DNA from: Planctomycetota bacterium
Lineage (GTDB): Bacteria > Planctomycetota > UBA8108 > SXIK01
DNA length: 64,000 nt
Direction: 5' to 3'
Assembly: GCA_965223845.1 (NCBI GenBank)
Contig: CBDCXR010000004.1
Location: forward strand, 7,712,001 to 7,776,000
Shown: positions 46,618 to 59,746 of the stretch, piece by piece
How the letters are laid out: each line of letters opens with the position of its first letter
How positions within the stretch are numbered: the stretch's first letter is position 1
Notes under the pieces: generated by a model
What the model saw: the letters and a program-made list of their open reading frames with translations, nothing else
Told to the model about the DNA's origin: nothing
The model's database searches: none
Made by a program: the position numbers and the translations under genes

Positions 46618-47705
46618 ATCGATTGCCGCTGGCGGAGGAACACACGACGGCCGGCGCTACGTGGGCGGCGGAGGACGGGCTCGATCTGCCGGCGAGCTAC
46701 GGTGACCCCGCGCGTGAGGCCGCCGCGGTGCGCGACGCGGCGGGCCTCGTCGACCTCTCTGAGCGCGGCGTGTTCCGAATCTCGGGCGCGGGCGCAGCGG
46801 AGACGCTCCACGGGCTCCTTTCGAGCTCGGTGAAGGATCTCGCCGCTCTGCGAGCGCAGCCGAGCTGCCTCCTCTCGGCGAAGGGGCGAGTCGTCGGCGC
46901 GTTCGATCTCCAGCGAACGGGCAAGGACGAGTTCCACGTCGCGATGCGCGAGCGGCCGCGGGCAGGGCTCTTCGCTGGACTCCAAAAGTACCTCTTCCTC
47001 AGCGATCTCGAGCTCGTCGACGTGAGCGCGGAGCTCGCAGTCGTCGCAATTCAGGGGCCGAGGGCCGACGCGCTCCTCTCGCGTGCGTCCGGAGGCCCGG
47101 GCGAGCTCGCGCCCGGGGCGATCGAGATCCGAACGATCGCGAGTGTCCCGTGCCGAGTGTCGACGGGCGGCGAGACGCCCGAGGGCGGCGTTTTCATCTG
47201 GGTGCCGCAGAGCGGGCTTGTCGACGTGTGGCGCGCGATTCGGAGCGCGTTCGTGGAGGGTGAGAACCTCGTGGGGCGCGAGGCGTACGAGGAGCTCCGG
47301 GTAGAGGCGGGCGCCGCGCGCTACGGGATCGACTACGACGAGGAGGCGTTCCCGAACGAGATCGGCTGGGACAGCGCGCTCTCGTACGACAAGTGCTACG
47401 TCGGCCAGGAGGTCGTCGCGCGGATGCGAACCTACGGCGAGGTCAATCGGAAGCTGCGAGGTCTCCTCTCGGACGACCGCGAGGTCGCGCGCGGCGCCCG
47501 CGTGCTCGCCGGAGACGACGAGATCGGCCTCGTCACCTCGAGTGTCCGCTCGAGTCGCCTCGCGCGGACACTCTCGCTCGCGCGCGTCAAACGACGATTC
47601 TGGGGCGAGCGCGAAGTCACGATCGAGACGGGGAACGGACGGACTCTCGCGGTGCAAACCGACTTGCCGTTTGTTCGGCTGGACGGTACCGAAGACGCGC
47701 GCTAA
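46614..47705 (+). CDS. ygfZ: Folate-binding YgfZ/GcvT-like protein
   Basis: [23 protein letters not shown] signature; GTGA overlap with mqnC stop. Confidence 0.85.
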
Positions 47706-47841
47706 GCTGCAGGATTCCCGTCTCGTCGCGGCGACCGTACGACTGCGAACGAGCGAGGTTCGGGGGAGTTCGAGTCGTCCCGGCCGACGACCTCCGCCCC
47801 GTGAATTGAGATCGAGCCGCCGCGGCGCGGAGGAACATGCG

Positions 47842-49167
47842 TTGATCGTCCTCAAGTTCGGAGGAACTTCCGTCGGGAACCCGGACGCGATCCGTCGCGT
47901 CGGCGAAATCATCCGCGGTTCGCTCCCGCGCCGGCCGCTGGTGGTCTCGTCTGCCGTGGGTGGACAGACGAACCGACTCTTCGCGATCGTCGAAGAGGCG
48001 GTCGGCGGCGGCGATTGGGAAACGGAGTTCGGGACGCTCGAGGACGTCCACCGCGAGATCCTGCGCAGTCTCCAGCTCGACGCCCGCCTCCTCGACGAGC
48101 TCCTCGGGGAGCTGAAGGGAGTGGTTCAAGGGATCGCTCTCCTCCGCGAACGCACCGAGCGAGCCAAGGATCTCTTCGTCAGCTTCGGCGAGCGATTGGC
48201 GGTTCGCATCCTCGCGGCGTACTTGCGCTCGGTTGGCGTCGAGGCCGAGGCCAAGGACGCGTTTGATATCGGTCTCATCACCGACCGCAACCACGGGCGC
48301 GCGCGGCCGGTCGAGGATGTCGACGCGCGGATACGTACCGCTCTCGAAGGAGTCGAAAGCGTCCCGATCGTGACCGGCTACATCGGGAAGAGCGAGTGCG
48401 GCGAGATCACAACGCTCGGACGCGGCGGGAGCGACTACACCGCGGCGATCTTTGGCGCGGCCCTCGACGCCGAGGAGATCCAAATCTGGACGGACGTCGA
48501 CGGCGTGATGACCGCCGACCCGCGCATCGTCGACGGCGCGCGTTTCCTCGAGCGGCTTTCGTTCGCCGAGGCGGCCGAGCTCGCGTTCTACGGCGCGAAG
48601 GTGATCCATCCGGCGACGATGGTTCCGGCGGTGCAAAAGAACGTCCCGATTCGCGTCTTGAACAGTTTCCGACCGGAGTTCGAAGGAACGCTGATCGTCG
48701 CGGATCCGAGCGAAGACGACCGCTGGCTGAAGTCGATCGCGAGCAAGGACCGCGTCTCGATCATCGACGTCGTCGCGGCGCGGATGCTGCTCCAGCCGGG
48801 GTTCATCAAGAAGATCGCCGACGTCTTCGCGAAGCGCGAAGTCGTAATCGACATGATCGCGACGAGCGAGGTCAGCGTGTCGATGACCGTCGACCCGAGC
48901 GCCGAATTGGATCTCGTCGAGCGCGATCTCAAGGAATTCTCGAAAGTGACGGTCAAGACCGGAATGTCACAGGTGAGTCTCGTCGGCGAAGGAATCTCAG
49001 AGCGCGTGGGCTTCGCGGCCGAGCTCTTCGAGATCGTGGGCGAGCTCGGGGTGAACGTCGAGATGATCTCGTTCGGAGCGACGCGGAACAACCTGAGCAT
49101 CGTGGTTCGGGAGGAGCACATTCGGGACGTGGTGTCGGCTTTGCATGCTCGGTTTTTCGAACGGTGA
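47842..49167 (+). CDS. lysC: Aspartate kinase
   Basis: VLKFGGTSV, SFGE, TLGRGGSDYTA, WTDVDG.MTADP, GAKVIHP, ACT domains. Confidence 0.95.
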   Translation: MIVLKFGGTSVGNPDAIRRVGEIIRGSLPRRPLVVSSAVGGQTNRLFAIVEEAVGGGDWETEFGTLEDVHREILRSLQLDARLLDELLGELKGVVQGIALLRERTERAKDLFVSFGERLAVRILAAYLRSVGVEAEAKDAFDIGLITDRNHGRARPVEDVDARIRTALEGVESVPIVTGYIGKSECGEITTLGRGGSDYTAAIFGAALDAEEIQIWTDVDGVMTADPRIVDGARFLERLSFAEAAELAFYGAKVIHPATMVPAVQKNVPIRVLNSFRPEFEGTLIVADPSEDDRWLKSIASKDRVSIIDVVAARMLLQPGFIKKIADVFAKREVVIDMIATSEVSVSMTVDPSAELDLVERDLKEFSKVTVKTGMSQVSLVGEGISERVGFAAELFEIVGELGVNVEMISFGATRNNLSIVVREEHIRDVVSALHARFFER

Positions 49168-49179
49168 AGACGGGAAAAC

Positions 49180-49219
49180 TTCACACGAAGAGCGCGAAGC
49201 CGCGCGAAGAAAGACGAAG
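49180..49219 (+). repeat. Repeat copy A (left end of GxxExxY cassette)
   Basis: TTCACACGAAGAGCGCGAAGCCGCGCGAAGAAAGACGAAG, 12 bp after the lysC stop. Confidence 0.85.
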
Positions 49220-49296
49220 GCGGGAGCGAGTCGAAGAGGTGGGGAGTACCGAGGGACTCATTTCCCAAGTTCGTGAGAGTGGTGACGGTCGGAAGG

Positions 49297-49689
49297 TCAC
49301 CGCACGACTCGTTTGAGCCCATCGGATAAGCGCTGAACATTGAAGTTCATCAGCAACCCGACGGACAGCTTGGACAGCCGCAAATAGGTGATGAGTTGTG
49401 CCTCGTGGATCGGGAGAAGCCGCTCGACGCTCTTCAGCTCGACGACGAGCTCCCCGGCTACGACAAGGTCGGCGCGGTATCCGCAAGCGACTTTGGTTTC
49501 CTTGTATCGGAAAGGAATCGGCAGCTCCATCTCGAAGGGGATTCCTCTCCGCGCGAGTTCGTGACCGAGGCATTGCTGGTACGCCGATTCGAGGAGCCCC
49601 GGTCCAAGATTCCTGTGCACCTCGAGAGCGCAACCGATCACGTCGTGCGATAGAGATTCAAATTCAAAGCGATTCCCACGACGCCCCAC
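49297..49689 (-). CDS. GxxExxY protein (PD-(D/E)XK nuclease-like family)
   Basis: LGPGLLESAY motif, YRADLVV..VVELKSV, AQLITYL..GLLMNF. Confidence 0.92.
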   Translation of the reverse strand: MGRRGNRFEFESLSHDVIGCALEVHRNLGPGLLESAYQQCLGHELARRGIPFEMELPIPFRYKETKVACGYRADLVVAGELVVELKSVERLLPIHEAQLITYLRLSKLSVGLLMNFNVQRLSDGLKRVVR

Positions 49690-49760
49690 AGATCAACCTC
49701 TCTGCCAAATGATTTCGACCAGCGGCGCTTCCCCACGCACAGCCGCACGCACACTCACTC

Positions 49761-49790
49761 ACACACACACACACTCTCTCTCTCTCTCTC
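49761..49790. repeat. (AC)7(TC)8 microsatellite abutting repeat copy B
   Basis: Read directly from the sequence. Confidence 0.9.
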
Positions 49791-49829
49791 TTCGTCTTCC
49801 TTCGCGCCCCTTCGCGTCCTTCGTGTAAA
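49790..49829 (-). repeat. Repeat copy B (right end of GxxExxY cassette, inverted)
   Basis: Minus strand TTTACACGAAGGACGCGAAGGGGCGCGAAGGAAGACGAAG; 34/40 identical to copy A by manual alignment. Confidence 0.85.
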
Positions 49830-49895
49830 CTCCCGACTAGACCCCGAGTAACCTTGAGACCGAAACCCACGCCCCGCAACCGCTAGACCCCCGAG

Positions 49896-51563
49896 ATGCG
49901 GATCGCCCTAGCCCAAATCAACACGACCGTAGCCGACTTCAAAGGCAACACCGAAGCCGTCGAGCAGGCCTTAGCTCGCGCGCGCGCGGAAGGCGTCGAC
50001 CTCGTCGTGTTTCCCGAGCAAACGCTCCCGGGCTACCCGGCCGAAGATCTTCTCGAACGTCCCGATTTCTGGGTTGCCGCCGACGAGGCTCTCGAGCGCG
50101 TCGTCGCGAGCTGCCACGGCGTCGCGGCGCTCGTGGGCTCGCTTCGACGCGCGGGGAGCGGCGAAGGGAATCCCATCCACAACGCCGCGTTTCTCATCGA
50201 CGACGGCGAGATCGTCGCCGCGTACGACAAGCGACTTCTTCCGACCTACGACGTCTTTGACGAAGGCCGTTACTTTCGCCCGGGACGCGAATCCGCGGTC
50301 GTAGAGCTCCGCGGACACAAAGTCGGACTCGCGGTTTGCGAAGACCTTTGGAACGATCCGAGCTTCTGGTGCGAGCGTCGCTACGACGTCGACCCAATCG
50401 AGGATCTCGCTCGCGCCGGCGCCGAAGTCATCGTCGCGGTCTCGGCGTCGCCCTACAGCCTCGGCCGAACGTCGCTTCGCTACGACATGCTGAGGAGCTC
50501 CGCGGCGAAGCACGGCATCGCCATCGCGATGACGAATCTCGTCGGCGGGAATACAACTCTCGTCTTCGACGGGGCCAGCTTCGCGGTCAACGCGAACGGC
50601 GATCCCGTCGCGATCGCTCCGTCGTTCGAGGAGGCGGTCGAGATCTTCGATCTGGGGGGCGAGCCGCTGTCCGATGTGCCCCGGTCGTTCACGGCCGGAT
50701 CGGCTCGCGACGACAGTGCTCTCGTGGAGGAGGTCTACCGCGCTCTCGTGCTCGGCGTCCGGGACTACATGGAGAAGAGCGGGTTCGAGCGCGCGGTCCT
50801 CGGATTGAGCGGCGGCATCGACTCGGCGCTCACCGCGGCGGTCGCAGTCGACGCGATAGGACACGATCGCGTCCTCGGCGTCTCTCTCCCGTCGCGGTAC
50901 TCCTCCGAGGGAAGCATCGCCGACGCGGAAGCGCTCGCGCGAAACCTCGGCATCGAGCACCACACTCTTTCGATCGAAGATCTCTTCTCGTCGAGCCTTC
51001 GCACACTCGAGCCGCTATTCGAAGGAACCGATCCGGGCATCGCCGAAGAGAACATCCAAGCGCGCGCCCGCGGATTGCTGCTGATGGCGATCTCGAACAA
51101 GTTCGGCTCGCTCCTCCTCACGACCGGGAATAAAAGTGAGCTGGCCGTCGGTTACTGCACCCTCTACGGCGACATGTCGGGCGGGCTCGCGGTGATTTCA
51201 GACGTCCCGAAAACGCTTGTCTACCGCATTTGCGAGTGGCTGAATCGCGAGCGGGAGATCATTCCCGCGAGCACCATCGAAAAACCGCCGTCGGCGGAGC
51301 TGCGGCCCGACCAGACGGATCAGGACAGCCTGCCGCCTTACGACATCCTCGACTCGATCCTCGAATGCTACGTCGAGGAGCACGAGAGCGCGGACGAAAT
51401 CGTCGCCCGTGGATTCGAGCGCACGGTCGTCGAGGATGTGATTCGGCTCGTCGATCGGAACGAATACAAGCGAAAGCAAGCGGCGCCGGGGCTTCGGATT
51501 ACTTCGAAGGCGTTCGGGCCGGGGCGGCGGGTTCCGATTGTTCAGCGGTTTCGGCGGGTGTAG
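49896..51563 (+). CDS. nadE: Glutamine-dependent NAD+ synthetase
   Basis: Nitrilase domain VFPE..K..YDVFDE..CEDLW; LGLSGGIDS, ENIQARARG, TGNKSE, PSAELRPDQTDQD. Confidence 0.96.
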   Translation: MRIALAQINTTVADFKGNTEAVEQALARARAEGVDLVVFPEQTLPGYPAEDLLERPDFWVAADEALERVVASCHGVAALVGSLRRAGSGEGNPIHNAAFLIDDGEIVAAYDKRLLPTYDVFDEGRYFRPGRESAVVELRGHKVGLAVCEDLWNDPSFWCERRYDVDPIEDLARAGAEVIVAVSASPYSLGRTSLRYDMLRSSAAKHGIAIAMTNLVGGNTTLVFDGASFAVNANGDPVAIAPSFEEAVEIFDLGGEPLSDVPRSFTAGSARDDSALVEEVYRALVLGVRDYMEKSGFERAVLGLSGGIDSALTAAVAVDAIGHDRVLGVSLPSRYSSEGSIADAEALARNLGIEHHTLSIEDLFSSSLRTLEPLFEGTDPGIAEENIQARARGLLLMAISNKFGSLLLTTGNKSELAVGYCTLYGDMSGGLAVISDVPKTLVYRICEWLNREREIIPASTIEKPPSAELRPDQTDQDSLPPYDILDSILECYVEEHESADEIVARGFERTVVEDVIRLVDRNEYKRKQAAPGLRITSKAFGPGRRVPIVQRFRRV

Positions 51564-51585
51564 CCCGGCGACCGGAAGAAGAGAT

Positions 51586-51628
51586 TGCACACGAAGAGCG
51601 CGAAGGACGCGAAGGAAGAGGAAGGGGA
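51586..51628 (+). repeat. Repeat copy C (left end of TIR-MoxR island)
   Basis: TGCACACGAAGAGCGCGAAGGACGCGAAGGAAGAGGAAGGGGA, 22 bp after the nadE stop. Confidence 0.85.
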
Positions 51629-51824
51629 AAGACCGGGAGAACGGAAAGCGTGGGGAGCTAAGAAGTCGGGAGAGGAGAAACACGGATCGCATCCAGCCTC
51701 TCCGTTTCGACTACGCCGCAGCCTCCACACTCGCGGCTGACTTTCTTCCGTAGTCGCGGGTATCATGATCGGACGACCGACTCCGAGTTCGGTCGCGAGA
51801 TTCCGGTGGGTGGTTCTTTCGGCT

Positions 51825-53075
51825 GTGAAACCGATCGTCTTCATCAGTCACAGTACGGCGGAAGCGGACGCGGCGGGGCGAACGTGGATCGAAACGCTCT
51901 GCACGCGGCTCGAGGGTGCCGGTTACGACCCCAAGGTCGATTTTCGCGATATCGATGCCGGGCACGACTGGAACTCCGACATCGACGAGTGGATGGACGA
52001 GTGCCACGCCGCCGTCCTTCTTCTCTCGGAGCGCGCGCTTCGCTCGGAGTGGGTGAGGAAGGAAGTGACGATCCTCATCTGGCGGCTCGGTCGCGAGAAG
52101 GAATTTAGCGTGCTTCCGTTTCTTGCTCCGGATTTGGGGAGCAATCGGGACGAGAAACTCGCCGCGCTGAGGGCTGCGTATCCGGCCCTCTTCCTCGACC
52201 GAATTCAGATGAAGGAAGGTCTCGATCACGACGCGATCACGCAGACGGTTCGCGACGAGGTCACACAGCCGTACGAAGATACGCCGTTTGAGAAACTCGT
52301 CGAGTATCTAACGGTCCGCATCAAGGAGTGCGACGCCACGCTCCTCGATCGTCTCGTCGTCGATCTCGGCCGTACCCCTCCCGGATGGCGCGCGGGCAAG
52401 GACAGCTCGGAGCGGTGCGCCGACGTCATCGCGCGCTGCGCTCTCCACGGCGAGTGGGGCAACCTCGCGAATGGTCTCGCCGACCTCGACGAGCGACTCC
52501 AACAGGGACGGGTCGACGCGAGTGGACGTTCCGAGATCCTTCACGCGCTCTCGCCGCTCTGGGTTCCGGCCGACGCCTCCGCCGGACTTTCCGCGACGGA
52601 CGCCTCTGCGGATCGGTGGGCCGTCGCGCTGAACGGTGAGTACGTTCTCCTCTACACGTCGCTCATGTACATCGAGCGTGCGTACCCGCTCGTCCAGCAG
52701 AAGCGCTGCTGCGTTGTCGAGCATCTCCAGCAGGGAGGGGATCAGCTCGTCGAGCTCAGAGCGCGAATTTGGGAAGTTCTCGAGACGGAATTTCCCCGTC
52801 GCTCTCGCGAACGAATCGTCGATCGGCTCAGGCGTCGGTCACAGCCGATCTTCATCACGATTCCGTCGTTTGAATGGGGGGACAAGATCGATCAGACACT
52901 GAGCGCGCTCGAGAGCGATTTTCCTAACGTGACGTTCGTCCTCGACACGGGCCGTGAGCAGCCTGGCACTCCCGCTCCGCGAGGGACCCAGTTCCTCGAT
53001 CCGCCGGTCGACCTCGACCGTGAGGCGAACAATCTCGACTTGTACGAAAACGTAAAAGATGCGATTGGCCTTTGA
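51825..53075 (+). CDS. TIR-domain protein with uncharacterised C-terminal domains (vMAP/iSTAND-like position in a MoxR-vWA system)
   Basis: IVFISHS..D..I.AG.DW...I..AVLLLS..AL.SEWVRKE (catalytic-position Glu present). Confidence 0.8.
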   Translation: MKPIVFISHSTAEADAAGRTWIETLCTRLEGAGYDPKVDFRDIDAGHDWNSDIDEWMDECHAAVLLLSERALRSEWVRKEVTILIWRLGREKEFSVLPFLAPDLGSNRDEKLAALRAAYPALFLDRIQMKEGLDHDAITQTVRDEVTQPYEDTPFEKLVEYLTVRIKECDATLLDRLVVDLGRTPPGWRAGKDSSERCADVIARCALHGEWGNLANGLADLDERLQQGRVDASGRSEILHALSPLWVPADASAGLSATDASADRWAVALNGEYVLLYTSLMYIERAYPLVQQKRCCVVEHLQQGGDQLVELRARIWEVLETEFPRRSRERIVDRLRRRSQPIFITIPSFEWGDKIDQTLSALESDFPNVTFVLDTGREQPGTPAPRGTQFLDPPVDLDREANNLDLYENVKDAIGL

Positions 53076-53090
53076 AGCCTAGAGGTCCTC

Positions 53091-54104
53091 GTGAGCTTTC
53101 AAAAACCCCACTTCGATCCCCAAGCCGCCGAGGGCGGCAAGCGTCACGCCGCGTCGAAGACGGTGACGTTTCGCTGGAGTGAAGAACCCGGCGACGTCTA
53201 TGTCTACTCGGACGAAATCATCCTCACGGTGAACGCCGCGATGGCCGCATCCCGGCCGCTCCTCGTGAGCGGGGATCCGGGGACGGGCAAAACCACGCTC
53301 GCGCGAGGGATCGCCGAGGTTTTGGAGCGCAAGTACTACAAGCGCGTCGTCACGTCGCGGACGAAGGCGACTGACCTCGCTTGGCGTTTCGATGCGCTGA
53401 AGCGTCTCAGCGAAGCTCAGGCCGCGACCAAGGACGAGCCGCTCCTCCCGCGGGCGGCGTTCGTCGAGCCCGAGGCCCTCTGGTGGTGCTTTGACCCTTC
53501 GACGGCAACCCAGCGCGGCGCGACGACCATCGAGGAGGCGAAGATCCAGCAACGCCAGGAGGATCTCCTTCCGGCGAAAGATCCCGATGACCGGCACGAC
53601 CGAACGGACGCCGTGCTCCTCATCGACGAGATCGACAAGGCGGAGCCGGACGTCCCGAACGATCTCCTCGAAACGCTCGACGAGCGGCGGTTCACCGTGA
53701 CCGATCTCGACACTCCGCGAGAGATCAACGCTGGAGATCGGAAGCCGTTCGTGATGATCACGACGAACGGAGAACGCGATCTTCCGCCGGCATTCATTCG
53801 TCGGTGCGCGTCTATCGAGCTTCCAGCACCGGATGAAGATTGGCTCGTCCGAGTCGCAAACGAGCACGACAGCGAGGGGTCGAAGGCGTTCCATCGCGAA
53901 GTTGCCAAGCGCATAGTCGCACTCGCAAAGGCCGCGAAAGAGCGCAACCAGCGTCCACCGAGCACGGCCGAGTTTCTCGACACGCTCGAAGCGTGCCGTG
54001 ATCTCGGCATCAAGAGTGCGTCTCACGCGCAATGGAAGACTCTCCTCGAGGCGATGGCCTGGAAGCGAACCGACAGCATGCCCGAGCTCGTGGAGGAGAC
54101 GTGA
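53091..54104 (+). CDS. MoxR-family AAA+ ATPase (conflict-system type)
   Basis: RPLLVSGDPGTGKT, FDALKRL, VLLIDEIDKA..PNDLL, ITTNGERDLP.AF.RRC, PSTAEFLD. Confidence 0.9.
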   Translation: MSFQKPHFDPQAAEGGKRHAASKTVTFRWSEEPGDVYVYSDEIILTVNAAMAASRPLLVSGDPGTGKTTLARGIAEVLERKYYKRVVTSRTKATDLAWRFDALKRLSEAQAATKDEPLLPRAAFVEPEALWWCFDPSTATQRGATTIEEAKIQQRQEDLLPAKDPDDRHDRTDAVLLIDEIDKAEPDVPNDLLETLDERRFTVTDLDTPREINAGDRKPFVMITTNGERDLPPAFIRRCASIELPAPDEDWLVRVANEHDSEGSKAFHREVAKRIVALAKAAKERNQRPPSTAEFLDTLEACRDLGIKSASHAQWKTLLEAMAWKRTDSMPELVEET

Positions 54105-55225
54105 CCGCTTCCGCGTCGCTAGCACGCCACGAGTCGGAGGGCCCCGACCGCCACCGAGTGAAGCCGCGAGGTGACGTCTCCCTCGGTGATCTTCTTCGGG
54201 CGATCGCTGCGCTCGGACTCCAGAAGAAGACTACTGATCGACGCGCTCACCTCGATCGGACCGTCGCGGCGCTCGGCCTCCCGGTCGAGCCGAAAGGGGC
54301 GCGCACGAGCGAGAGCGACGACGCGGAGCAAAGAACGCCGAGGCCTCCGGAGGGCGACGAGCACCGCCCGCAGTGGAAGCCGCCCGAGGAGCGAGTTCGA
54401 TCCGCGCCGCCGATTCCCGAGCCGAGAGACGTCGAGGAAACCGAGACGCCGCGTCCGGTTCGCCTTCTCAGGATCCAGTCCGTCCGTACGACCGCGACGC
54501 TCGCGCCGTGGACTCGTGCGAATGCGAAGCCGATGGACGAGCCGACCGCCGAGTCGTACCGCGACCCCGAGCCGCGCCCCCTCTTCGAGCCGCGTCTCGC
54601 GCGCTCGATTCTCGGCGCGGTCGCGCGGACGCGCGACCCCAGTTGCGACATCGATGTCGAGCAACTGGCGGACGACATCGCGCACGCACGACCGGTTACG
54701 GAGTTGCCGTTCGAGGTGGAATGGAGTCTCCGCCGCGGACTCCAGCTCCTCGTCGACCGCGGGAAGGGAATGGCGCCGTTCGCCTCGGACTGCGAGCGCA
54801 TTCGCGACGACCTCGACGCCGTCCTCGCCGACGACGCGTTTGACGTCCAGGAATTCGAGGGAAGCCCGACGCGGGGAGTGCTCGTCGACTGGTTCGAAAT
54901 CGACGACGACGATGATGATGATGACGATGATGGTACGGCTCCCTGGACGCCGCCCGTCGATGGGCGTCCGATCGTCGTCCTCAGCGATCTCGGTCTCGCT
55001 CCGATCTCTTCGATCGCGCGCGCGTCGAGTCGCGAATGGCGGGAATTCGGCGAGCGGGCGCGCCGAGCCGGCTCACCCGTAGTCTGCCTGAGTCCATATT
55101 CCACCGAGCGAACGCGTACCGTCGCGGGCGACGCGATGGAGTGTTTCCACTGGGACCGCTCAACCGGTACGAGCGAGGTCGCTCGTGTCCTCCGGCGCCT
55201 CCGCATTCGAGGTCACGGGAGGTGA
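54101..55225 (+). CDS. Divergent vWA-like partner of MoxR with Pro-rich linker and Asp10 tract
   Basis: IDVEQL..IA..RP..LP, LQLLVDRG.GMAPF, IVVLSDLG typical of the vWA component; GTGA overlap with the MoxR stop. Confidence 0.7.
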   Translation: MTASASLARHESEGPDRHRVKPRGDVSLGDLLRAIAALGLQKKTTDRRAHLDRTVAALGLPVEPKGARTSESDDAEQRTPRPPEGDEHRPQWKPPEERVRSAPPIPEPRDVEETETPRPVRLLRIQSVRTTATLAPWTRANAKPMDEPTAESYRDPEPRPLFEPRLARSILGAVARTRDPSCDIDVEQLADDIAHARPVTELPFEVEWSLRRGLQLLVDRGKGMAPFASDCERIRDDLDAVLADDAFDVQEFEGSPTRGVLVDWFEIDDDDDDDDDDGTAPWTPPVDGRPIVVLSDLGLAPISSIARASSREWREFGERARRAGSPVVCLSPYSTERTRTVAGDAMECFHWDRSTGTSEVARVLRRLRIRGHGR

Positions 55226-55232
55226 GCCGGGG

Positions 55233-58200
55233 ATGACGATGCGAGAGCGCGCCGAGAGAACGATTCGTCGTTTCTACGAACGTCGACCGAATGCGTTTGA
55301 GCTCGCCCGCGTCGCATCGCTCGCCGTTCGCGTCGACGCGGCGCTCCTCCGCGCGCTCCGGATCGATCTCCTTCGCGGCGTTCCCGCCGGCGCGGAAGCC
55401 GACGTTTGGTTCTCGCCGCTCGTCGCCGCACCGGGCGCGACCGGCTTCGTGTTCGACCGCGGCGTCTGCGACCTCCTCCGGCTCGATCTCGCTCAGGATC
55501 AGACGCTTCTTCGACGGGCGTACGACATCGTGAGCGAGGTCCACTCGGGTGCGCCGCCGTCCCAGCAGATCGAGGAGCGCCTCATCTACTACGGGCTTCT
55601 TGACGATCCCGGATCGAACGATGAACTCACTGCGACCTTCTACGAAGCCCTCGCAGCACTTACCGCTAACAAGAAGCGAGGCGGAGAGGTCGCGCGCTGG
55701 GCGGCGCGAGCGCTTCCCGGTCTCCCGGCAAATGCACAGACCAACACTGCCGCTCACCTCCTCGACGTCGGCAGCGCAGCGAGGCTCCGCGGCGCGGCGA
55801 TTCTCGATCGCGAGCTCACGCGCTTCGCGGCACCCGCGACCCTCCGGCACGTCCTCCCGCGCACGTCGAAGAAAAAGATCGGCATCCGCGTCTACGACGG
55901 CGTCTTCGAGATCGTCGAATCGGGCCGTGACGCGAGCACGGCGATCGAAGTGCCCGACGTACCGGGGTCCTACCTGACGCTCAAGTGGCGAGCGTATCTC
56001 CCGCGCGAGGGACGTCGAACGATCCTTGCCCAGCCGGGCGAACGGGTTTCGATTCCGCGGAATCGGAGGGAACTGCTCGACGACGCGCTCGAGCGCCTTG
56101 CGGACGAATGCGATCTGACAACGGCGGCGTACTATCACCGCGGCGCGAACTCGAACGCGCTCCTCTTGACCGCCGTCTTCCAGCGCGATCCGGGAGGACT
56201 CGAGGTCAAGCCGCGTCTCGCCTACAGTCCGCTCATCTCGGAGGCCGTTCGTTCCACGGGGTCGATCGTTCAGCCTGACCTCGAGGAAACGATGCTCGCG
56301 GACGATCCCGCTTTCGCGATCGGCGTCGACGGCGAAGACGACGCCCACGGCGTTTTCGCCGCATGGCAGCCTCCTCCGAGCACCGAGCGAGAACAGAATC
56401 GCCTCGTGCGAGGCGCGAAACGTCTCGGAAAGATCGTCGAAGCGTGGCCGATTCGCGTCCGCACGATGGAGGGCGACGAGTTCGCGCTCGAGCTCCTCGA
56501 TGAGCGAGACGAAGAGGCGGACGACGATTCCCGTGAGAACGTAGCGGAGCCCGAGGTCGAATCGGAGGACGATGCGAAAGCCGCCGAGCAGCTTCGCCTC
56601 GGGACGTTCACTGTGGAGATCCCCGAAAGCGCGGATGTCGGGTTTTTTCTTTCGCCGACGCACGGCCTGACGATCTCCCGCGATTACGAACCGGGAATGA
56701 CTCTCCGGGCGAGCTACGGTGGCGCGTTCCACGAGGTGCGAGTGCTTCACGTGGAGGTCGATCCAGGTGAAGACGAGGCGGAGCGGCTCCAAGAGTCTCG
56801 CGTGTCCAACGCTCAGATTGCGGCCGAGCGCGACAGTGGGCGCCCACTCATGGCGGTGATCGAATTCGACTCGCCAGTTCGGTCGATTCAGGTCCTCCCG
56901 CGACTCCGCGAGCGCCGATCGCTCGAAACTGGCGCCCGTTGGTTCACGATCGCGCGGGCCGAGCTCGATGGCGGACTTCGTTCGGGCACGATCGAGCGGT
57001 TCGACGCGGAGGACACCGAGGTCGTGCTCCGCTCTCCGACGCCCATCCTCGGCGAGGTTACCGACGGCGCACCGATCATCGTCGACGGCACGGTCGTCGG
57101 AGTCGTGTCGGCGGTCGGAGCCATCGACCGTCCGGGAGCGACCGAAACAGAGTACCGGGTCGTCGCGATCCCGATTTGGCGCCTTCGGCGTCTGCTCGAC
57201 GAGATTCCGTACGACGCGTACTTCTCCTATCACCCCGACGATCGCGACGCTGCGAACGAACTCGCGGAGGCGCTCAGAGACCGTGGACTCCGCATTTGGA
57301 CTCCCGAAAGCGAGCTCTCCGCGGGCAAGGACTGGAAGTCGAGCGAGACGACGGCGCTCACGCGCTCGAAATCCGCGGTCCTCTTCTTCTCCGAGAGTCG
57401 AACGCGCTGGAAGGTCGACGTAGATCTCGACGTCGCAACGAAGCTTGCGGAAACCGAGCCCGCCTTCGATGTGTTGCCCGTGGTCTTTCCACCGGTCGGC
57501 ATCGAGCATCTGCCCGCGGGAGTCCGCACGCGGCAGATCTACACATTCGATTCGAGTGCCGCCGAAAAACTCGCGGACGAGATCTTCGCGCGTATCGCTC
57601 GGCCCGTCGCGGCGGAGGATGCTACGGAGGAGCCCGAGGCGACAGATCTTCCGACCTGGAAAGAAGCGATCGAAGCGATTCGTTCGAGCAAGCAGTACGA
57701 CGGGCTCGAGCTGAAGCCGCAGGACGGCCTCCAGCCACTCGGACCCGACCCGGAGAGCGGACTCTGGGAGTTCCTGCACGTCGAGACGGGCGAGCCGCCC
57801 GAGCGAGATTCCCACGGAAGGACCGTTCCTACGGCCGCGATGGGGATCGTGCTGGTGCTTCTTCCGGGCGGACGGTTTTGGATGGGGTCGCAGAAACCGC
57901 CCGTCGGCGCGACGACCTCTTCGGTCGGGGGCGGACGGCCTTTTCAGAATCAGGATCCGGATTCCCGCGAGAATGAGCGTCCGGTCCACGAGGTCGAGCT
58001 CAGCCCGTTCTTTATCGCGAAGTACCAGCTCACCGAGGCGCAGTGGTCGCGATCGACTGCGATGCCCTCTTCTGAGGAAAGGTCCGAAGGAACGACCACG
58101 GCCAAGGTCGAACCCAAGTCGCAGAACGCATTAGAGTACTGCGCCACTCAAGGATTGACGCTGCCGACCGAGGCGCAATGGGAGTACGCGTGCCGAGCTG

Positions 58201-58559
58201 GCACCTACACGCCGTACAGCGGAACAGGAAACCTCGACGAGATGGGCTGGTACGAGAAAAACAGCGGCGATCGGATCCACAACGTCGGCGAGAAGCGACC
58301 CAATCACTGGGGCCTCTACGACGTTCACGGAAACGTATGGGAATGGTGCGTGGACCAATTCGATCACGAGTTCTACTCGCGGGAGGAAGCGACGAGGCGC
58401 GATCCGACCTGCGACGAAGGACGCTCCGGTGGCCGGGTGCTGCGGGGCGGCGGCTTCGACGATTTCGCCGAGCTAACTCGCTCGGCTTTCCGTATCGGGG
58501 ACGCGCCGGAGGCTCGCAACCTCAACGTGGGTTTTCGCCCCGTGAGAACGATCGACTAA
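55233..58559 (+). CDS. Multidomain effector: helical N-terminus, GAF-like, degenerate trypsin-like, TIR, C-terminal FGE-sulfatase (FGS/SUMF1) domain
   Basis: YDAYFSYH..D TIR start; LPGGRFWMGS, E.P.HEV.LSPF.I.KY.LT, LPTEAQWEYACRAG, N.WGLYD.HGNVWEW, RVLRGG, GFRP. Confidence 0.82.
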   Translation: MTMRERAERTIRRFYERRPNAFELARVASLAVRVDAALLRALRIDLLRGVPAGAEADVWFSPLVAAPGATGFVFDRGVCDLLRLDLAQDQTLLRRAYDIVSEVHSGAPPSQQIEERLIYYGLLDDPGSNDELTATFYEALAALTANKKRGGEVARWAARALPGLPANAQTNTAAHLLDVGSAARLRGAAILDRELTRFAAPATLRHVLPRTSKKKIGIRVYDGVFEIVESGRDASTAIEVPDVPGSYLTLKWRAYLPREGRRTILAQPGERVSIPRNRRELLDDALERLADECDLTTAAYYHRGANSNALLLTAVFQRDPGGLEVKPRLAYSPLISEAVRSTGSIVQPDLEETMLADDPAFAIGVDGEDDAHGVFAAWQPPPSTEREQNRLVRGAKRLGKIVEAWPIRVRTMEGDEFALELLDERDEEADDDSRENVAEPEVESEDDAKAAEQLRLGTFTVEIPESADVGFFLSPTHGLTISRDYEPGMTLRASYGGAFHEVRVLHVEVDPGEDEAERLQESRVSNAQIAAERDSGRPLMAVIEFDSPVRSIQVLPRLRERRSLETGARWFTIARAELDGGLRSGTIERFDAEDTEVVLRSPTPILGEVTDGAPIIVDGTVVGVVSAVGAIDRPGATETEYRVVAIPIWRLRRLLDEIPYDAYFSYHPDDRDAANELAEALRDRGLRIWTPESELSAGKDWKSSETTALTRSKSAVLFFSESRTRWKVDVDLDVATKLAETEPAFDVLPVVFPPVGIEHLPAGVRTRQIYTFDSSAAEKLADEIFARIARPVAAEDATEEPEATDLPTWKEAIEAIRSSKQYDGLELKPQDGLQPLGPDPESGLWEFLHVETGEPPERDSHGRTVPTAAMGIVLVLLPGGRFWMGSQKPPVGATTSSVGGGRPFQNQDPDSRENERPVHEVELSPFFIAKYQLTEAQWSRSTAMPSSEERSEGTTTAKVEPKSQNALEYCATQGLTLPTEAQWEYACRAGTYTPYSGTGNLDEMGWYEKNSGDRIHNVGEKRPNHWGLYDVHGNVWEWCVDQFDHEFYSREEATRRDPTCDEGRSGGRVLRGGGFDDFAELTRSAFRIGDAPEARNLNVGFRPVRTID

Positions 58560-58606
58560 CCCGACGCTCTCGATCAAGCTCCGGTTCAAATCCTCCTCTC
58601 CCTCTC

Positions 58607-58651
58607 TCCCCTTCCTCTGCCTTCGCGTCCCCTTCGCGCCCTTCGTGTGAA
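58607..58651 (-). repeat. Repeat copy D (right end of TIR-MoxR island, inverted)
   Basis: Minus strand TTCACACGAAGGGCGCGAAGGGGACGCGAAGGCAGAGGAAGGGGA; shares the AGAGGAAGGGGA tail with copy C. Confidence 0.85.
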
Positions 58652-58687
58652 CCTCTTCCTCTCCCTCTTTCGCTTCCGCTTCCCCAC

Positions 58688-59746
58688 TCAAAACCGAACC
58701 CCCAACCCCCCGCTCACGAAGAAACTCTGATGCGACCCCGCATCATCGTCGAGCGGAGAATCTCCACCATCCGGCGCGTCCGACGTCCGATACGACACCG
58801 AAGTGAACACCGAGCCCCAGCTCCACAGGTACTCGAGCCCCAGGTCGACGCTTCCCGTCGTCACCACCGACGACTCGTAGAAGTCGCCGCTCCGCACGCC
58901 ATCGATCGACACTTCGGTGTCATCGTAGAAGAGTGCGCCGGTTGTTCCCTGAAGGAAGAAGCGGAAACCCGTCGAGTGAATGTCTTCGTCGAAGAGGATG
59001 CGCTTCAACTCGTCGAAATCGCCAAAGGATCCGAGGAGCGCGAACGGCGCTGACAGCCGGACACCCGCGTGCACCGACGTCGAATCGAGGTCGCCGAACG
59101 ACACGCGTGAGCCGTCGATCGTTCGTGTCCGACCGGCGTGGGATTCGAACGCGCCGCCGACGAGGACGGTCAGCACCGGTACGGGCTGGAGCCCGAGATC
59201 GACGCCCGCACGGATCCCGTCGCGAAAGAGTCCGCGGTAACTGCGCTCGCCGCCGTCGCCGAAGGTCCCGAGCGCGTACCCGAAGTGGGGGAGAAGGCGG
59301 AACCGCCAGCCGGCGTCGCGCTCGCCGTCGTCGTGACCGGGATCGATGCGGATGCTCTTCTCTCGGAGAACGCCCGAGTCATCGAAGACGAACTGAAGCT
59401 CGTTCGTATCCTCCGAACCCTCGCCGACTCGGAGGAACGTATGCTGATATCCGAAGAGAGGCGTCGGGATGCGAAAACGAAGACCGACGTCGAGCTCGTC
59501 GCGGTACGAATAAAAGAGCCGATCTTCATCGCCCGTCCACTCGAGACGTGTCGGGGCACCGAGAGCGTCGAGCGTCTCGCCGAGCGTCGCCTCGTCGACG
59601 GCGAGCTCGTCGTACGCTTTCTTGTCGATCGGTGATTCCGAGCGCATCCGGATGACGTCGATCCGACATCCGGTCGCCGCGAGAAGGGCGATGAGCCCGA
59701 AATAAGTTGCGGCGAGACGGCTGCGCCGGCGGGCGCGACGAATCAT
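58688..59746 (-). CDS. Lipoprotein with BamE/SmpA-like domain fused to a probable outer-membrane beta-barrel
   Basis: Lipobox AATGC; T..ETL..LGAP..Y.Y..L..VFD..GV; alternating beta strands ending GLGVRF. Confidence 0.6.
   Translation of the reverse strand: MIRRARRRSRLAATYFGLIALLAATGCRIDVIRMRSESPIDKKAYDELAVDEATLGETLDALGAPTRLEWTGDEDRLFYSYRDELDVGLRFRIPTPLFGYQHTFLRVGEGSEDTNELQFVFDDSGVLREKSIRIDPGHDDGERDAGWRFRLLPHFGYALGTFGDGGERSYRGLFRDGIRAGVDLGLQPVPVLTVLVGGAFESHAGRTRTIDGSRVSFGDLDSTSVHAGVRLSAPFALLGSFGDFDELKRILFDEDIHSTGFRFFLQGTTGALFYDDTEVSIDGVRSGDFYESSVVTTGSVDLGLEYLWSWGSVFTSVSYRTSDAPDGGDSPLDDDAGSHQSFFVSGGLGVRF

What the first reader, a model, noticed from the sequence alone, without database searches (positions are those of the whole stretch)
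49180..58651. One repeat family, as matched inverted pairs, delimits both a GxxExxY nuclease cassette and a 7-kb conflict island: candidate transposase-free cassette system
Seen: four copies of YACACGAAG-NN-CGCGAAG-N2-4-CGCGAAG-purine tail, at A 49180(+), B 49829(-), C 51586(+) and D 58651(-). A/B bracket only the GxxExxY gene and C/D bracket exactly the four-gene TIR-MoxR-vWA-FGS island. The tails co-vary by pair (A/B AAGACGAAG; C/D AGAGGAAGGGGA), so partners resemble each other more than the other pair. Left copies lie 12 and 22 bp after the lysC and nadE stops, and I saw no other copy in the window. There is no integrase or transposase here. Known: GxxExxY is a PD-(D/E)XK-fold family of unclear function. 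Inference: the repeats may be ends or landing pads for variable cargo, possibly processed by the GxxExxY protein, loosely analogous to REP/RAYT or integron cassettes. I know of no description of such a system.
Basis: partly seen in the sequence, partly recalled or inferred. Interest (0 to 1): 0.88.

Follow-up and report, generated by a model that had tools for sequence, protein, structure and literature searches.

The report
Nuclease gene nested in hairpin repeats
The four repeats belong to a genome-wide family of hairpin-forming repeats that sit behind genes, and one copy carries a small nuclease gene that is found inside the same kind of hairpin in several bacterial phyla, which hints at what this uncharacterised nuclease family acts on.

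Summary
The four copies are real and lie where stated. They are not a local cassette system. A profile search of the whole genome finds 126 arms. Forty form inward-facing pairs, and 34 of those are gene-less hairpins of 171-361 bp with unique cores. Of the 126 arms, 94 sit where a gene reads into them.

The link to GxxExxY is real and general. Outside this window, 37 of 41 testable GxxExxY genes lie between inverted arms built of tandem units of about 9 nt. None of 80 shifted controls did. The genomes include Herpetosiphon and Verrucomicrobiota, Vicinamibacterales and Planctomycetaceae MAGs. This is the architecture of 23S-rRNA intervening sequences carrying S23p (PMC4990558), with a different protein and a different repeat period. 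It also resembles RAYT/REPIN.

Both insertions are missing from relatives that keep the lysC-nadE-p352 gene order. C/D is probably one hairpin, or two arms, at a permissive convergent junction that now holds the TIR-MoxR island. Inward orientation is not enriched at long range, and the other cargo is not defence-related.

Verdict: a new variant of a known kind. No mobility or nuclease action was shown.

The parts
47542..49167 (+). lysC (aspartokinase), the left flanking gene. The annotated ORF start is probably too early.
   Evidence: AA_kinase + ACT domains. Relatives align only from about residue 82-100. The stop lies 4 nt before arm A.
49172..49231 (+). Arm A: GGGAAAACTT-CACACGAAG-AG-CGCGAAG-CCG-CGCGAAG-AAA-GACGAAG plus a purine tail.
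   Evidence: Exact core. Profile hit E 2.6e-10. Arm limits.
49297..49689 (-). GxxExxY PD-(D/E)XK nuclease gene, 130 aa, GTG start preceded by GAGAGG.
   Evidence: PF13366 E 9e-42. TIGR04256 E 2e-43. It carries the residues invariant in 31 homologues: G31, E34, Y37, D74, E84, K86. AF2 model pLDDT 92.4.
49750..49790 (.). (CA)n(CT)n microsatellite continuing the inner tail of arm B. Similar purine or pyrimidine simple repeats follow many arms.
   Evidence: Read. Tails of solo arms. Public contigs are cut at 49740-49803.
49784..49837 (-). Arm B, the inverted partner of A. It lies 58 nt upstream of the nadE start.
   Evidence: Exact core. Profile hit E 1.4e-10. It pairs with A over about 55 bp in the RNA fold.
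49896..51563 (+). nadE (glutamine-dependent NAD synthetase), between the two elements.
   Evidence: CN_hydrolase + NAD_synthase. Orthologues at 59-65% identity in 12 relatives.
51578..51640 (+). Arm C, 14 nt after the nadE stop. It carries the rare GAGGAAG variant and a 2-nt shorter second spacer.
   Evidence: It forms a 35-nt, 86% complementary inverted repeat with D.
51765..53075 (+). TIR-domain protein, 436 aa.
   Evidence: TIR_2 E 2.7e-16. Only generic TIR hits in PADLOC.
53091..54104 (+). MoxR-type AAA+ ATPase, 337 aa.
   Evidence: AAA_5 E 2.7e-16 and bpMoxR PF20030 E 1.2e-11.
54032..55225 (+). 397-aa ORF, possibly vWA-like. The start is uncertain because the ORF overlaps the MoxR gene.
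   Evidence: No Pfam, NCBIfam or PADLOC hit. ESM Atlas nearest named clusters are VWA_CoxE, score 0.93, a lead only.
55185..58559 (+). 1124-aa protein with a TIR domain (residues 680-790) and a C-terminal FGE-sulfatase domain.
   Evidence: PF03781 E 1.1e-36 and TIR_2 E 1.1e-11.
58596..58659 (-). Arm D, 28 nt after the stop of the convergent 352-aa gene.
58688..59746 (-). 352-aa gene of no known family (p352), the right flanking gene, convergent with nadE in relatives.
   Evidence: No Pfam hit. Orthologues lie next to nadE in relatives.

Best explanation
SHOWN. A, B, C and D are arms of a genome-wide family of palindromic intergenic elements. An arm is 60-80 nt long. It has a conserved outer end (gGAAGAGnTTCACA), four RCGAAG units spaced 9-12 nt start to start, and a purine-rich, often microsatellite-like tail. 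Two inverted arms enclose a unique core. Arms lie just behind gene 3' ends, with the gene reading into the purine arm. The A/B copy carries the genome's only intact GxxExxY nuclease gene. That arrangement, a GxxExxY ORF between inverted arms made of tandem units of about 9 nt, is a conserved unit in this phylum and in Herpetosiphon, Verrucomicrobiota, Vicinamibacterales and Planctomycetaceae genomes. It parallels the 23S-rRNA intervening sequence, where an S23p ORF sits between inverted arms with tandem heptamers.

INFERRED. Read-through RNA from the flanking genes folds into a stem of about 45-55 bp. That would be a substrate of the RNase III type, so the element can sit in transcribed DNA without harm. 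The nuclease recognises the tandem units of its own arms, as DNA hairpin or cruciform or as an RNA stem. It thereby copies, maintains or once spread the arms, making it a counterpart of RAYT for REPINs. The gene-less pairs and solo arms would then be old, non-autonomous relatives or relics.

C/D. This is most likely one such element, or less likely two solo arms, in the convergent nadE/p352 spacer. Its core now holds the TIR-MoxR-(vWA-like)-TIR/FGE operon. The spot is permissive and varies among relatives. The evidence does not require the arms to be the island's means of transfer.
For: Family size and shape:
- 126 arms at E<0.01, 102 at E<1e-5, all on the chromosome.
- 40 inward pairs: 37 under 1 kb, 34 of them 171-361 bp. 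Only one neighbour pair under 1 kb has any other orientation.
- Arm profile.
- Cores are single-copy. Only 3 elements share a 66-97-nt stretch, and one pair shares 38 nt.

Position:
- A GC3-based frame call finds a gene reading into 94 of 126 arms, out of 19, and none for 13. Random sites gave 888 in and 876 out of 3000.
- 20 of 40 pairs lie between convergent genes, and 36 of 46 solos have a gene reading in.

Partner signature:
- The second spacer is identical in 15 of 17 parsed short pairs. Shuffled partners gave a mean of 3.6 and a maximum of 11 in 5000 shuffles.

The gene:
- Only one full GxxExxY gene. A second, divergent PF13366 ORF lacks the E and K residues and has no flanking repeat.
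- D74, E84 and K86 are intact. The fold is nuclease-like, nearest Cas4 and lambda exonuclease, though weakly.

Generality:
- A flanking inverted repeat scoring >=15 was found at 26 of 30 GxxExxY genes from 30 genomes of the phylum, against 0 of 58 shifted controls.
- All 11 genes tested in three genomes of other phyla scored >=18, with control maximum 13.
- Two tandem copies in L034 sit exactly between the arms.
- PF05635 genes show the same arrangement: 19 of 23 against 0 of 44 controls. Their unit period is 7 in 18 of 23, against 0 of 30 for GxxExxY. The repeat period therefore follows the protein family.
- Genomes with GxxExxY carry more generic nonamer arms: median 11 against 2.5, and >=10 arms in 41 of 73 against 11 of 78.
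- In G110, different gene copies sit in different arm types, and each type is also dispersed.

Insertions:
- lysC and nadE are 2-103 bp apart in 4 relatives.
- nadE and p352 are 10 and 189 bp apart in two relatives. Two others hold different genes there.

RNA and the IVS precedent:
- The A/B arms pair in the RNA fold.
- For the intervening sequence, RNase III cutting in the stem and tandem heptamers before the ORF are reported in PMC4990558 (abstract and passages).
Against: - No act of mobility was seen. No two elements share a core. No target duplication or boundary direct repeat was found. No relative closer than 65% (genomes) or 59% (metagenomes) nadE identity is available.
- Unique cores differ from REPINs, which are held to replicate as whole doublets.
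- A/B are not close partners: ranks 51 and 69 of 125, and 0 of 3 spacers identical. The same spacer result holds for C/D and for the 3-kb pair.
- Some genomes have many arms but no GxxExxY or PF05635 gene found. Examples are G083 (243 arms, 92% complete) and G101 (77 arms, 84% complete). The Thiobacillus genome behind L031 has a hairpin but no PF13366. Arms can therefore persist without the gene.
- 4 of 30 GxxExxY genes showed no flanking repeat. In a few (L131, L137, L140, L142) the gene lies beside or between hairpins rather than inside one.
- Genomes of one phylum are kin, so the Mann-Whitney P of 7e-9 overstates the association.
- RNase III processing and any activity of the nuclease are inference only.
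Confidence: 0.6

Rival explanations
1. Host cis-element only. The arms are 3'-end RNA structures used by the cell for RNase III processing, mRNA stabilising or insulating. The GxxExxY gene merely uses, or tolerates, such a stem for its own expression control. The nuclease has no role in making or moving arms.
For: - Arms show a strong bias to gene 3' ends with fixed polarity: 94 of 126.
- Partner spacers are kept identical, as expected for a selected stem.
- Arms persist in genomes where no GxxExxY was found.
- In the Coxiella IVS the authors favour the RNA over the ORF as the relevant part (PMC4990558, passages).
- There are no recent duplicates.
Against: - About 44 arms are solos that cannot form the stem.
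- It does not explain why two unrelated nucleic-acid-binding protein families each sit in arms with their own repeat period.
- It does not explain why arm outer ends share a TT(A/C)AC(C)-like terminus across phyla.
- It does not explain how one arm family reached 126 sites.
- The T-run lies before the stem and the A-run after it, the reverse of an intrinsic terminator.
Confidence: 0.2
2. The arms are the ends or landing pads of a transposase-free cassette system. Variable cargo, including the defence-type island, moves in and out between matched arm pairs, possibly processed by GxxExxY.
For: - Five of 40 pairs hold genes: A/B, C/D, a 3-kb pair, a 1.4-kb pair and a 525-bp pair.
- Both window cargos are absent from relatives with conserved flanks.
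- C and D share a rare variant, and their inner 35 nt are 86% complementary.
- The island fills its core tightly. There are 125 nt from arm C to the first start codon and 36 nt from the last stop to arm D's inner repeat.
Against: - Inward orientation is not enriched at 1-10 kb: 3 of 15 neighbour pairs.
- Gene-bearing pairs lack the partner spacer signature: 0 of 9 spacers identical in the three parsed.
- Other cargo is not defence-related.
- The island's G+C (0.62-0.68) is no different from its flanks.
- The nadE/p352 junction also varies in relatives that lack these arms.
- The relatives compared are distant, so absence there says little about the mechanism.
Confidence: 0.12
3. An ordinary MITE family. 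These would be non-autonomous deletion derivatives moved by a classical transposase encoded elsewhere, with GxxExxY a passenger.
For: The elements have terminal inverted repeats, are small, lie between genes and occur in many copies.
Against: - The interiors share no homology.
- No pair up to 10 kb encloses a transposase-like ORF.
- No clear target duplication was found.
- Y1_Tnp hits are borderline (23 bits) and about 10 kb or more from any arm.
- It does not explain the conserved nesting of GxxExxY in such arms in several phyla.
- Transposase families other than Y1_Tnp were not searched genome-wide.
Confidence: 0.05

Closest known systems
23S-rRNA intervening sequences (IVS) carrying an S23p / PF05635 ORF, as in Coxiella, Leptospira and Salmonella
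   Same: A small ORF lies in the loop of a long stem formed by terminal inverted repeats, with tandem short repeats and an AG-rich stretch just upstream of the ORF. The element is regarded as selfish and of unknown origin, and RNase III cuts in the stem (PMC4990558, abstract and passages). In this phylum, PF05635 genes outside rRNA show the same arms: 19 of 23.
   Different: Here the ORF is a PD-(D/E)XK nuclease (PF13366), not a four-helix bundle. The units are about 9-10 nt, not 7. The sites are behind protein-coding genes, not in 23S rRNA. The arm family has spread to 126 copies, nearly all without an ORF. G000 has no PF05635 match at E<=1e-10. RNase III cutting is not shown here.
REPIN / RAYT systems
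   Same: These are inverted doublets of a short extragenic repeat in many copies, together with a single-copy gene that is itself flanked by the repeats. From search listings and abstract openings only: PMC3337134 and bioRxiv 10.1101/2022.05.22.493013. That RAYT genes are flanked by REPs is recalled.
   Different: The protein is a PD-(D/E)XK nuclease, not an HUH Y1 transposase. There is no credible Y1_Tnp near any arm. Arms are 60-80 nt with internal tandem units. Cores are unique rather than copied with the doublet. Other genomes hold several GxxExxY copies with several arm types.
MITEs and foldback-type elements
   Same: Both are small, lie between genes and have terminal inverted repeats. 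Foldback-type elements also have arms built of internal tandem repeats (recalled).
   Different: There is no shared interior, no parent IS and no target duplication found.
Integron cassettes (attC) and Xer-dependent dif modules
   Same: In both, cargo is bounded by imperfect inverted repeats whose structure matters more than their sequence (recalled).
   Different: There is no integrase in the window. The elements do not form a one-directional array. The arms of one element face each other around the cargo, rather than one site per cassette. Most elements carry no cargo.
PD-(D/E)XK nucleases in mobile DNA: Tn7 TnsA, Rpn/YhgA 'transposase_31', PD-(D/E)XK homing endonucleases such as I-Bth0305I, and Cas4
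   Same: They share the catalytic fold. Cas4 SSO0001 is the best Foldseek match (E 2e-3, TM 0.5), and the I-Bth0305I catalytic domain appears at rank 40.
   Different: There is no sequence-level relation to any solved structure. The matches are weak and show only the superfamily. The roles of TnsA and Rpn are recalled, not tested.

Membership tests
GxxExxY protein (TIGR04256 / Pfam PF13366 PDDEXK_3) | Scores above the curated cut-offs of both models | tested here: met
   PF13366 142.5 bits against a cut-off of 22. TIGR04256 147.3 bits against a cut-off of 35.
GxxExxY protein (TIGR04256 / Pfam PF13366 PDDEXK_3) | GxxExxY motif and the D...ExK catalytic residues of the PD-(D/E)XK fold | tested here: met
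   G31, E34, Y37, D74, E84 and K86 are invariant in 31 aligned homologues, the window's protein included. The AF2 model (pLDDT 92.4) matches PD-(D/E)XK nucleases. Assigning these residues to catalysis is inference from the superfamily.
23S-rRNA intervening sequence (IVS) element | Terminal inverted repeats that form a long stem around the ORF | tested here: met
   The A/B arms pair over about 55 bp in the minimum-energy and centroid RNA folds.
23S-rRNA intervening sequence (IVS) element | Tandem short repeats within the arm upstream of the ORF | tested here: met
   Four RCGAAG units spaced 9-12 nt start to start. The IVS has three or four GACAGAT heptamers (PMC4990558).
23S-rRNA intervening sequence (IVS) element | Inserted in a helix of the 23S rRNA gene | tested here: not met
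   The elements lie between lysC and nadE and between nadE and p352. There is no Rfam match in 48800-59200.
23S-rRNA intervening sequence (IVS) element | ORF of the S23p / PF05635 family | tested here: not met
   The ORF is PF13366. G000 has no PF05635 match at E<=1e-10.
23S-rRNA intervening sequence (IVS) element | Excision from the transcript by RNase III | not testable with these tools
   No RNA holder was listed. Only contigs of one sample were available.
REPIN / RAYT | Many extragenic inverted doublets of one repeat | tested here: met
   37 inward pairs under 1 kb among 126 arms.
REPIN / RAYT | The doublet replicates as a unit, so copies share the spacer | tested here: not met
   The cores are unique.
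REPIN / RAYT | The associated single-copy gene is an HUH Y1 transposase flanked by the repeats | tested here: not met
   The flanked gene is a PD-(D/E)XK nuclease. The Y1_Tnp hits are borderline and not next to arms.
MITE | Interior derived from a parent IS and shared among copies, with a target-site duplication | tested here: not met
   There is no shared interior and no transposase in any pair. The flanks show only a loose CTCGA/TCTGA-like motif, which is often the neighbour's stop codon, and no duplication.
Integron gene cassette | An IntI tyrosine recombinase with an adjacent one-directional array of ORF-attC units | tested here: not met
   The nearest Phage_integrase hit lies about 37 kb outside the window. 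The arms are inverted around the cargo.
MoxR-vWA conflict systems (for the C/D cargo) | bpMoxR-type AAA+ ATPase | tested here: met
   PF20030 44.6 bits against a cut-off of 27.
MoxR-vWA conflict systems (for the C/D cargo) | Adjacent vWA protein | tested here: inconclusive
   No profile hit even at E 5. The ESM Atlas lead to VWA_CoxE clusters scores 0.93.
MoxR-vWA conflict systems (for the C/D cargo) | Match to a described defence system | tested here: not met
   PADLOC and NCBIfam give only domain-level TIR and AAA hits, far below system cut-offs.

The most novel reading that the evidence does not exclude
GxxExxY nucleases are the enzymatic partners of a class of hairpin elements found in several phyla, whose arms are tandem nonamers. 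S23p/Avd-like four-helix-bundle proteins are the partners of a sister class with heptamer arms, which includes the classical rRNA intervening sequences. Each protein binds the tandem units of its own arms. The nuclease cuts hairpin or cruciform DNA at the conserved TT(A/C)AC termini and so copies or homes the element. This would be a second, independent RAYT/REPIN-like partnership. The loops of these hairpins would serve as entry points for foreign operons such as the TIR-MoxR island.
Probability: 0.22. Interest if true: 0.85.

Novelty: new variant of a known kind. Interest (0 to 1): 0.6.

Why it matters
PF13366/TIGR04256 is a widespread protein family, found in 73 of 151 sampled genomes of this phylum. 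Its function is listed as 'Unknown' in the PD-(D/E)XK survey (PMC3424549, one table passage). In the library searched, three papers hold 'GxxExxY' (two were listed; I read a passage of one) and two hold 'PDDEXK_3' or 'PF13366' (I read a table passage of one). Nothing I saw in them concerns flanking repeats.

The gene almost always sits inside inverted arms of tandem nonamers. The same arms occur by the dozen to the hundred without a gene. The repeat period switches to 7 when the nested protein is S23p. Together these give a concrete substrate to test for the nuclease.

The finding also connects two puzzles: the origin of rRNA intervening sequences, called 'unclear' in PMC4990558, and the abundant hairpin repeats of many environmental bacteria.

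For annotation, these arms explain many spurious short ORFs and breaks in assemblies. For the defence field the message is cautionary: an island bracketed by a repeat pair need not be moved by that repeat.

Tried and rejected
- Decayed GxxExxY genes in the gene-less elements. A six-frame search with a family HMM covered 36 other short pairs and the inner 700 nt of 46 solos. It found nothing better than E 5.9. Rejected.
- Hidden partners for solo arms. Only 2 of 46 have an inner inverted match scoring >=20 within 1.5 kb.
- Target duplications or boundary direct repeats. None were found.
- Foreign composition of the island. G+C is 0.62-0.68 inside and 0.60-0.71 outside, so it is not distinct.
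- Known RNA families. Rfam gave no match at E<=0.1 in 48800-59200.
- Solved structures by sequence. None at E<=1. By fold, there were only weak superfamily matches.
- Closer relatives for empty-site analysis. The 30 nearest genomes lack the exact arm pattern and none is of the same genus. The best nadE identity is 65% among genomes and 59% among metagenome contigs. The 80 metagenome loci were not used further.
- Reads. No RNA holder was listed. The four holders are contigs of one sample and one study, possibly the source sample. Laid on 48500-59500, they cover the stretch without other letters. The 'joints' that skip 7003, 7014 or 9409 bases have only 20-23 letters on the shorter side. I read them as other genomic copies of the repeat, not as excision. 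This gives no verdict on excision, expression or RNA ends.
- Intrinsic terminator. In other genomes the T-run precedes the stem and the A-run follows it, the wrong way round. Not pursued with the scanner.
- Protein-tree versus arm-type co-variation. Not run. The gene and its arms are inherited together under every model, so the test would not discriminate.
- Complex prediction. Not used, as no protein-protein claim is made.
- The search of earlier findings. It was closed, so no earlier notes were seen.
- Supplements. No supplementary files of papers were seen. None bears on a claim made here.

Full report
1. THE OBSERVATION

The exact core CACGAAG-NN-CGCGAAG occurs in the window at 49184(+), 49825(-), 51590(+) and 58647(-). 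The only other matches carry one mismatch: C's own internal repeat, and a probable chance site at 29005. Reading the sequence confirms the layout:
- lysC stop
- arm A
- GxxExxY gene on the minus strand
- a (CA)n(CT)n run
- arm B
- nadE
- arm C
- four ORFs
- arm D
- the stop of a convergent 352-aa gene

The window is G000:C4:7712001-7776000.

2. THE FAMILY IS GENOME-WIDE

A strict pattern finds 99 hits in the 7.9-Mb genome. A profile built from 65 copies finds 147 hits at E<1, 126 at E<0.01 and 102 at E<1e-5. All are on the chromosome, and 70 of the 126 lie between 5 and 7 Mb.

It runs through four RCGAAG units and fades into a purine-rich tail.

Sorting arms along the chromosome gives 40 inward-facing (+,-) neighbour pairs within 10 kb. 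Thirty-seven are under 1 kb, and 34 of these are 171-361 bp. Only one neighbour pair under 1 kb has any other orientation. Forty-six arms are left as solos. Only 2 of them hide a degenerate partner within 1.5 kb. Solo arms run into long purine microsatellites.

The cores between paired arms are single-copy. Three elements share a 66-97-nt stretch and one pair shares 38 nt. Nothing else matches beyond simple sequence. Core G+C is 57%, against 65% for the genome.

3. WHERE THE ARMS SIT

I called the coding frame of the 300 nt lying 70-370 nt outside each arm, taking the open frame with the largest GC3-GC2. A gene reads into 94 of 126 arms and out of 19, with no call for 13. Random sites gave 888 in and 876 out of 3000. 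Twenty of 40 pairs lie between convergent genes. Thirty-six of 46 solos have a gene reading in.

4. PARTNERS

In the 17 short pairs where both arms could be parsed, the spacer between the two CGCGAAG units is identical in 15. Shuffled partners gave a mean of 3.6 and a maximum of 11. The other two spacers are identical in 8 of 17 each. Short pairs are therefore born, or kept, as palindromes.

The three parsed long pairs (the 3-kb pair, A/B and C/D) have 0 of 3 spacers identical each.

By whole-arm similarity, D is 5th of 125 candidate partners for C, and 1st in the tail. C is 15th for D. Both carry GAGGAAG, which 9 of 126 arms have. A and B are 51st and 69th for each other, and their shared AAGACGAAG is the consensus (75 of 126 arms). 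The median partner rank in short pairs is 15. C/D's inner 35 nt are 86% complementary, the longest inverted repeat in the region.

I read C/D as probably, but not certainly, true partners.

5. THE GENE

G000 has one full GxxExxY gene, the one between A and B. It also has a divergent PF13366 ORF at C4:7043348-7043671. That ORF lacks the motif's E and the catalytic K, and it has no flanking inverted repeat.

The window's protein has every residue that is invariant in 31 homologues, including D74, E84 and K86. It gives a confident model with pLDDT 92.4. The nearest solved folds are Cas4, lambda-type exonucleases and, further off, tRNA-splicing endonucleases. All are weak matches (best E 2e-3, TM about 0.5). 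No solved structure matches by sequence.

6. THE LINK BETWEEN GENE AND ARMS IS CONSERVED

A scan of one genome per species for the exact arm pattern returned hairpins of the same build in many phyla.

In one of these, a Planctomycetaceae MAG (L034), two tandem GxxExxY genes each lie exactly between CACCACGAAGGACACGAAGAGCACGAAG and its reverse complement.

I then took 30 loci with PF13366 genes from 30 genomes of G000's phylum. For each gene I scored the best local alignment between the 200 nt upstream and the reverse complement of the 200 nt downstream:
- 26 of 30 testable genes score >=15, against 0 of 58 controls shifted by 800 nt. The window's own copy was left out, and two genes were dropped for short flanks.
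- In Herpetosiphon giganteus, a Verrucomicrobiota MAG and a Vicinamibacterales MAG, all 11 genes tested score >=18. The control maximum was 13 in 22 controls.

The arms differ in sequence: CACAGAG, CGCAGAG, CGCAAAG, CACGGAG, CATGAAG, CACGAAT and others. They always consist of about three tandem units, with the purine version upstream of the start codon on the coding strand. Many share a TT(A/C)AC(C) outer end.

7. A SISTER CLASS, AND THE KNOWN PRECEDENT

PF05635 (23S rRNA intervening-sequence protein, S23p) genes occur in 78 of 151 genomes of the phylum at E<=1e-10, but not in G000. Nineteen of 23 testable genes have flanking inverted repeats scoring >=15, against 0 of 44 controls. The best unit period is 7 in 18 of 23. 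For GxxExxY it is 8-10 in 26 of 30 and 7 in none.

This matches the published Coxiella IVS. There an S23p ORF lies in the loop of a 28-bp terminal-repeat stem, three tandem GACAGAT heptamers and an AG-rich stretch precede the ORF, and RNase III cuts in the stem. The authors call the origin and function unclear (PMC4990558, abstract and passages).

That S23p proteins are kin of the DGR protein Avd is recalled. One search lists two DGR papers that hold both names, which I did not read.

8. ARMS GREATLY OUTNUMBER GENES ELSEWHERE TOO

A generic pattern of three CRCNRAR units gives 3357 matches in 151 genomes, against 416 for the reversed control. Of those 416, 173 come from one noisy genome. Examples are 447 against 2, 283 against 2, 243 against 3, and 83 against 3 in G000.

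Genomes with GxxExxY have a median of 11 such arms, against 2.5 in genomes without. At least 10 arms occur in 41 of 73 against 11 of 78. The Mann-Whitney P is 7e-9, overstated because the genomes are kin.

There are exceptions. Eleven genomes have >=10 arms but no GxxExxY found, and six of these also have no PF05635. They include G083 with 243 arms.

In G110, three arm types coexist. Two GxxExxY copies lie between CACGGAG arms and between CACAGAG arms respectively, and two others lie beside a short hairpin.

9. THE TWO CARGOS ARE INSERTIONS

The gene order (two upstream ORFs, lysC, nadE, then convergent p352, BamE-like, MoaE) is kept in five relatives of the family and order.
- lysC and nadE are 2-103 bp apart in the four relatives where lysC was found. 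In G009 no lysC hit lies in the 2.1 kb upstream of nadE.
- In G000 they are 728 bp apart, and the A-GxxExxY-B element fills the gap.
- nadE and p352 are 10 bp (G009) and 189 bp (G007) apart.
- They are 817 bp apart, with another ORF between, in G003.
- They are 2.2 kb apart, with two other genes between, in G012.
- p352 was not detected in G004.
- In G000 the gap is 7.1 kb.

The junction is thus variable even in genomes that lack these arms. The relatives are distant (nadE identity at most 65%), so this shows insertion but not its mechanism.

10. IS THE ISLAND A CASSETTE OF THE REPEAT?

Evidence for: C/D look like partners, and the operon fills the core tightly.

Evidence against:
- Among neighbour pairs 1-10 kb apart, inward orientation is 3 of 15.
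- The other gene-bearing pairs hold an alginate-lyase-like gene plus DUF1572, an NTP-transferase, and a DUF2007 gene.
- The island's composition is not distinct.
- Nothing in PADLOC or NCBIfam names it as a known system. It has two TIR domains, a bpMoxR ATPase, an FGE-sulfatase domain and an unassigned ORF with a VWA_CoxE lead.

I therefore rate the cassette reading at about 0.12.

11. MECHANISM

Shown: the architecture, its conservation, the 3'-end position, the palindromic upkeep of short pairs, and an intact catalytic motif.

Inferred:
(a) Transcripts reading out of the flanking genes form the stem (for A/B). By analogy with the IVS, double-strand-specific RNase processes that stem.
(b) The tandem units are binding sites for the nested protein. 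This rests on the split of period 9 against period 7 by protein family.
(c) The nuclease acts on the arms to copy or maintain them, as RAYT is held to do for REPINs (search listings only).

Against (c): the cores are unique, there are no recent duplicates, and some genomes have arms but no gene.

The main rival, which I put at 0.2, is that the arms are purely host RNA elements and the gene is a tenant.

12. NOVELTY

Known:
- IVS elements with S23p.
- REPIN/RAYT.
- PD-(D/E)XK nucleases in mobile DNA.

Not found in print:
- that GxxExxY genes are nested in tandem-nonamer inverted arms;
- that such arms are dispersed gene-less behind genes;
- that the period differs by protein family.

The searches were 'GxxExxY' (3 papers hold the term, 2 were listed, none of what I saw is on this), 'PDDEXK_3 / PF13366' (2 papers, function 'Unknown'), IVS terms, REPIN/RAYT and S23p/heptamer terms. 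The library lacks most subscription journals and database family descriptions, so a prior remark elsewhere cannot be excluded.

I file this as a new variant of a known kind, with interest 0.6.

Noticed in passing
G000:C4:7043348-7043671 (outside the window): A second, divergent PF13366-like ORF (63.7 bits). It lacks the E of GxxExxY and the K of ExK, and it has no flanking inverted repeat. It may be an inactivated or repurposed paralogue.
   Followed up: partly
L161-L184 (other genomes of the phylum): PF05635 (S23p, the rRNA intervening-sequence protein) genes outside rRNA sit between inverted arms of tandem heptamers of many sequence types (GTTGTCA, CCAATAG, GGTCAGC, GTTGTGA and others). Two of them (L161, L167) sit in CACAAAG-type arms like those of GxxExxY.
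   Followed up: partly
window 49750-49790; G000 solo arms such as C4:2129464, 2825466 and 6313550: Arms run into long purine/pyrimidine microsatellites or minisatellites: (GA)n, (GT)n, (GAGTGA)n and a 13-nt unit repeated at least 9 times. Public contigs of the same sample break at the one beside arm B.
   Followed up: partly
G000 chromosome: The arms are unevenly spread. Per megabase the counts are 5, 4, 7, 14, 12, 33, 37 and 14, so 70 of 126 lie between 5 and 7 Mb. No reason is known.
   Followed up: no
window 47542-47830: The lysC ORF as listed (541 aa, GTG start) is probably about 90 codons too long. Relatives align only from residue 82-100 onward.
   Followed up: no
L156:8150-8860 and L157:9320-11360: The convergent nadE/p352 junction holds different genes in two relatives: one minus-strand ORF in G003, and two genes plus a masked stretch in G012. 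It is a recurrent insertion spot independent of the arms.
   Followed up: partly
L009, L025, L028, L067, L074, L088 and others (Herpetosiphon records): In Herpetosiphon, CACGAAG-type arms stand next to other tandem-repeat blocks (CCAATAG/GCTATCG-type, GGATGAA-type). This suggests compound arrays of several hairpin families.
   Followed up: no
G083 and G101 (other genomes of the phylum): These genomes have 243 and 77 generic nonamer arms (CGCCAAG and CGCAGAG types in G083), but no PF13366 or PF05635 gene was found at 92% and 84% completeness. In G083 the arms often form direct arrays about 70-130 bp apart rather than inverted pairs.
   Followed up: no
window 51607: Contigs of the public runs show a one-letter insertion behind 51607 in a minority of the summed depth. 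It most likely comes from contigs of other copies of the repeat that align to arm C.
   Followed up: no
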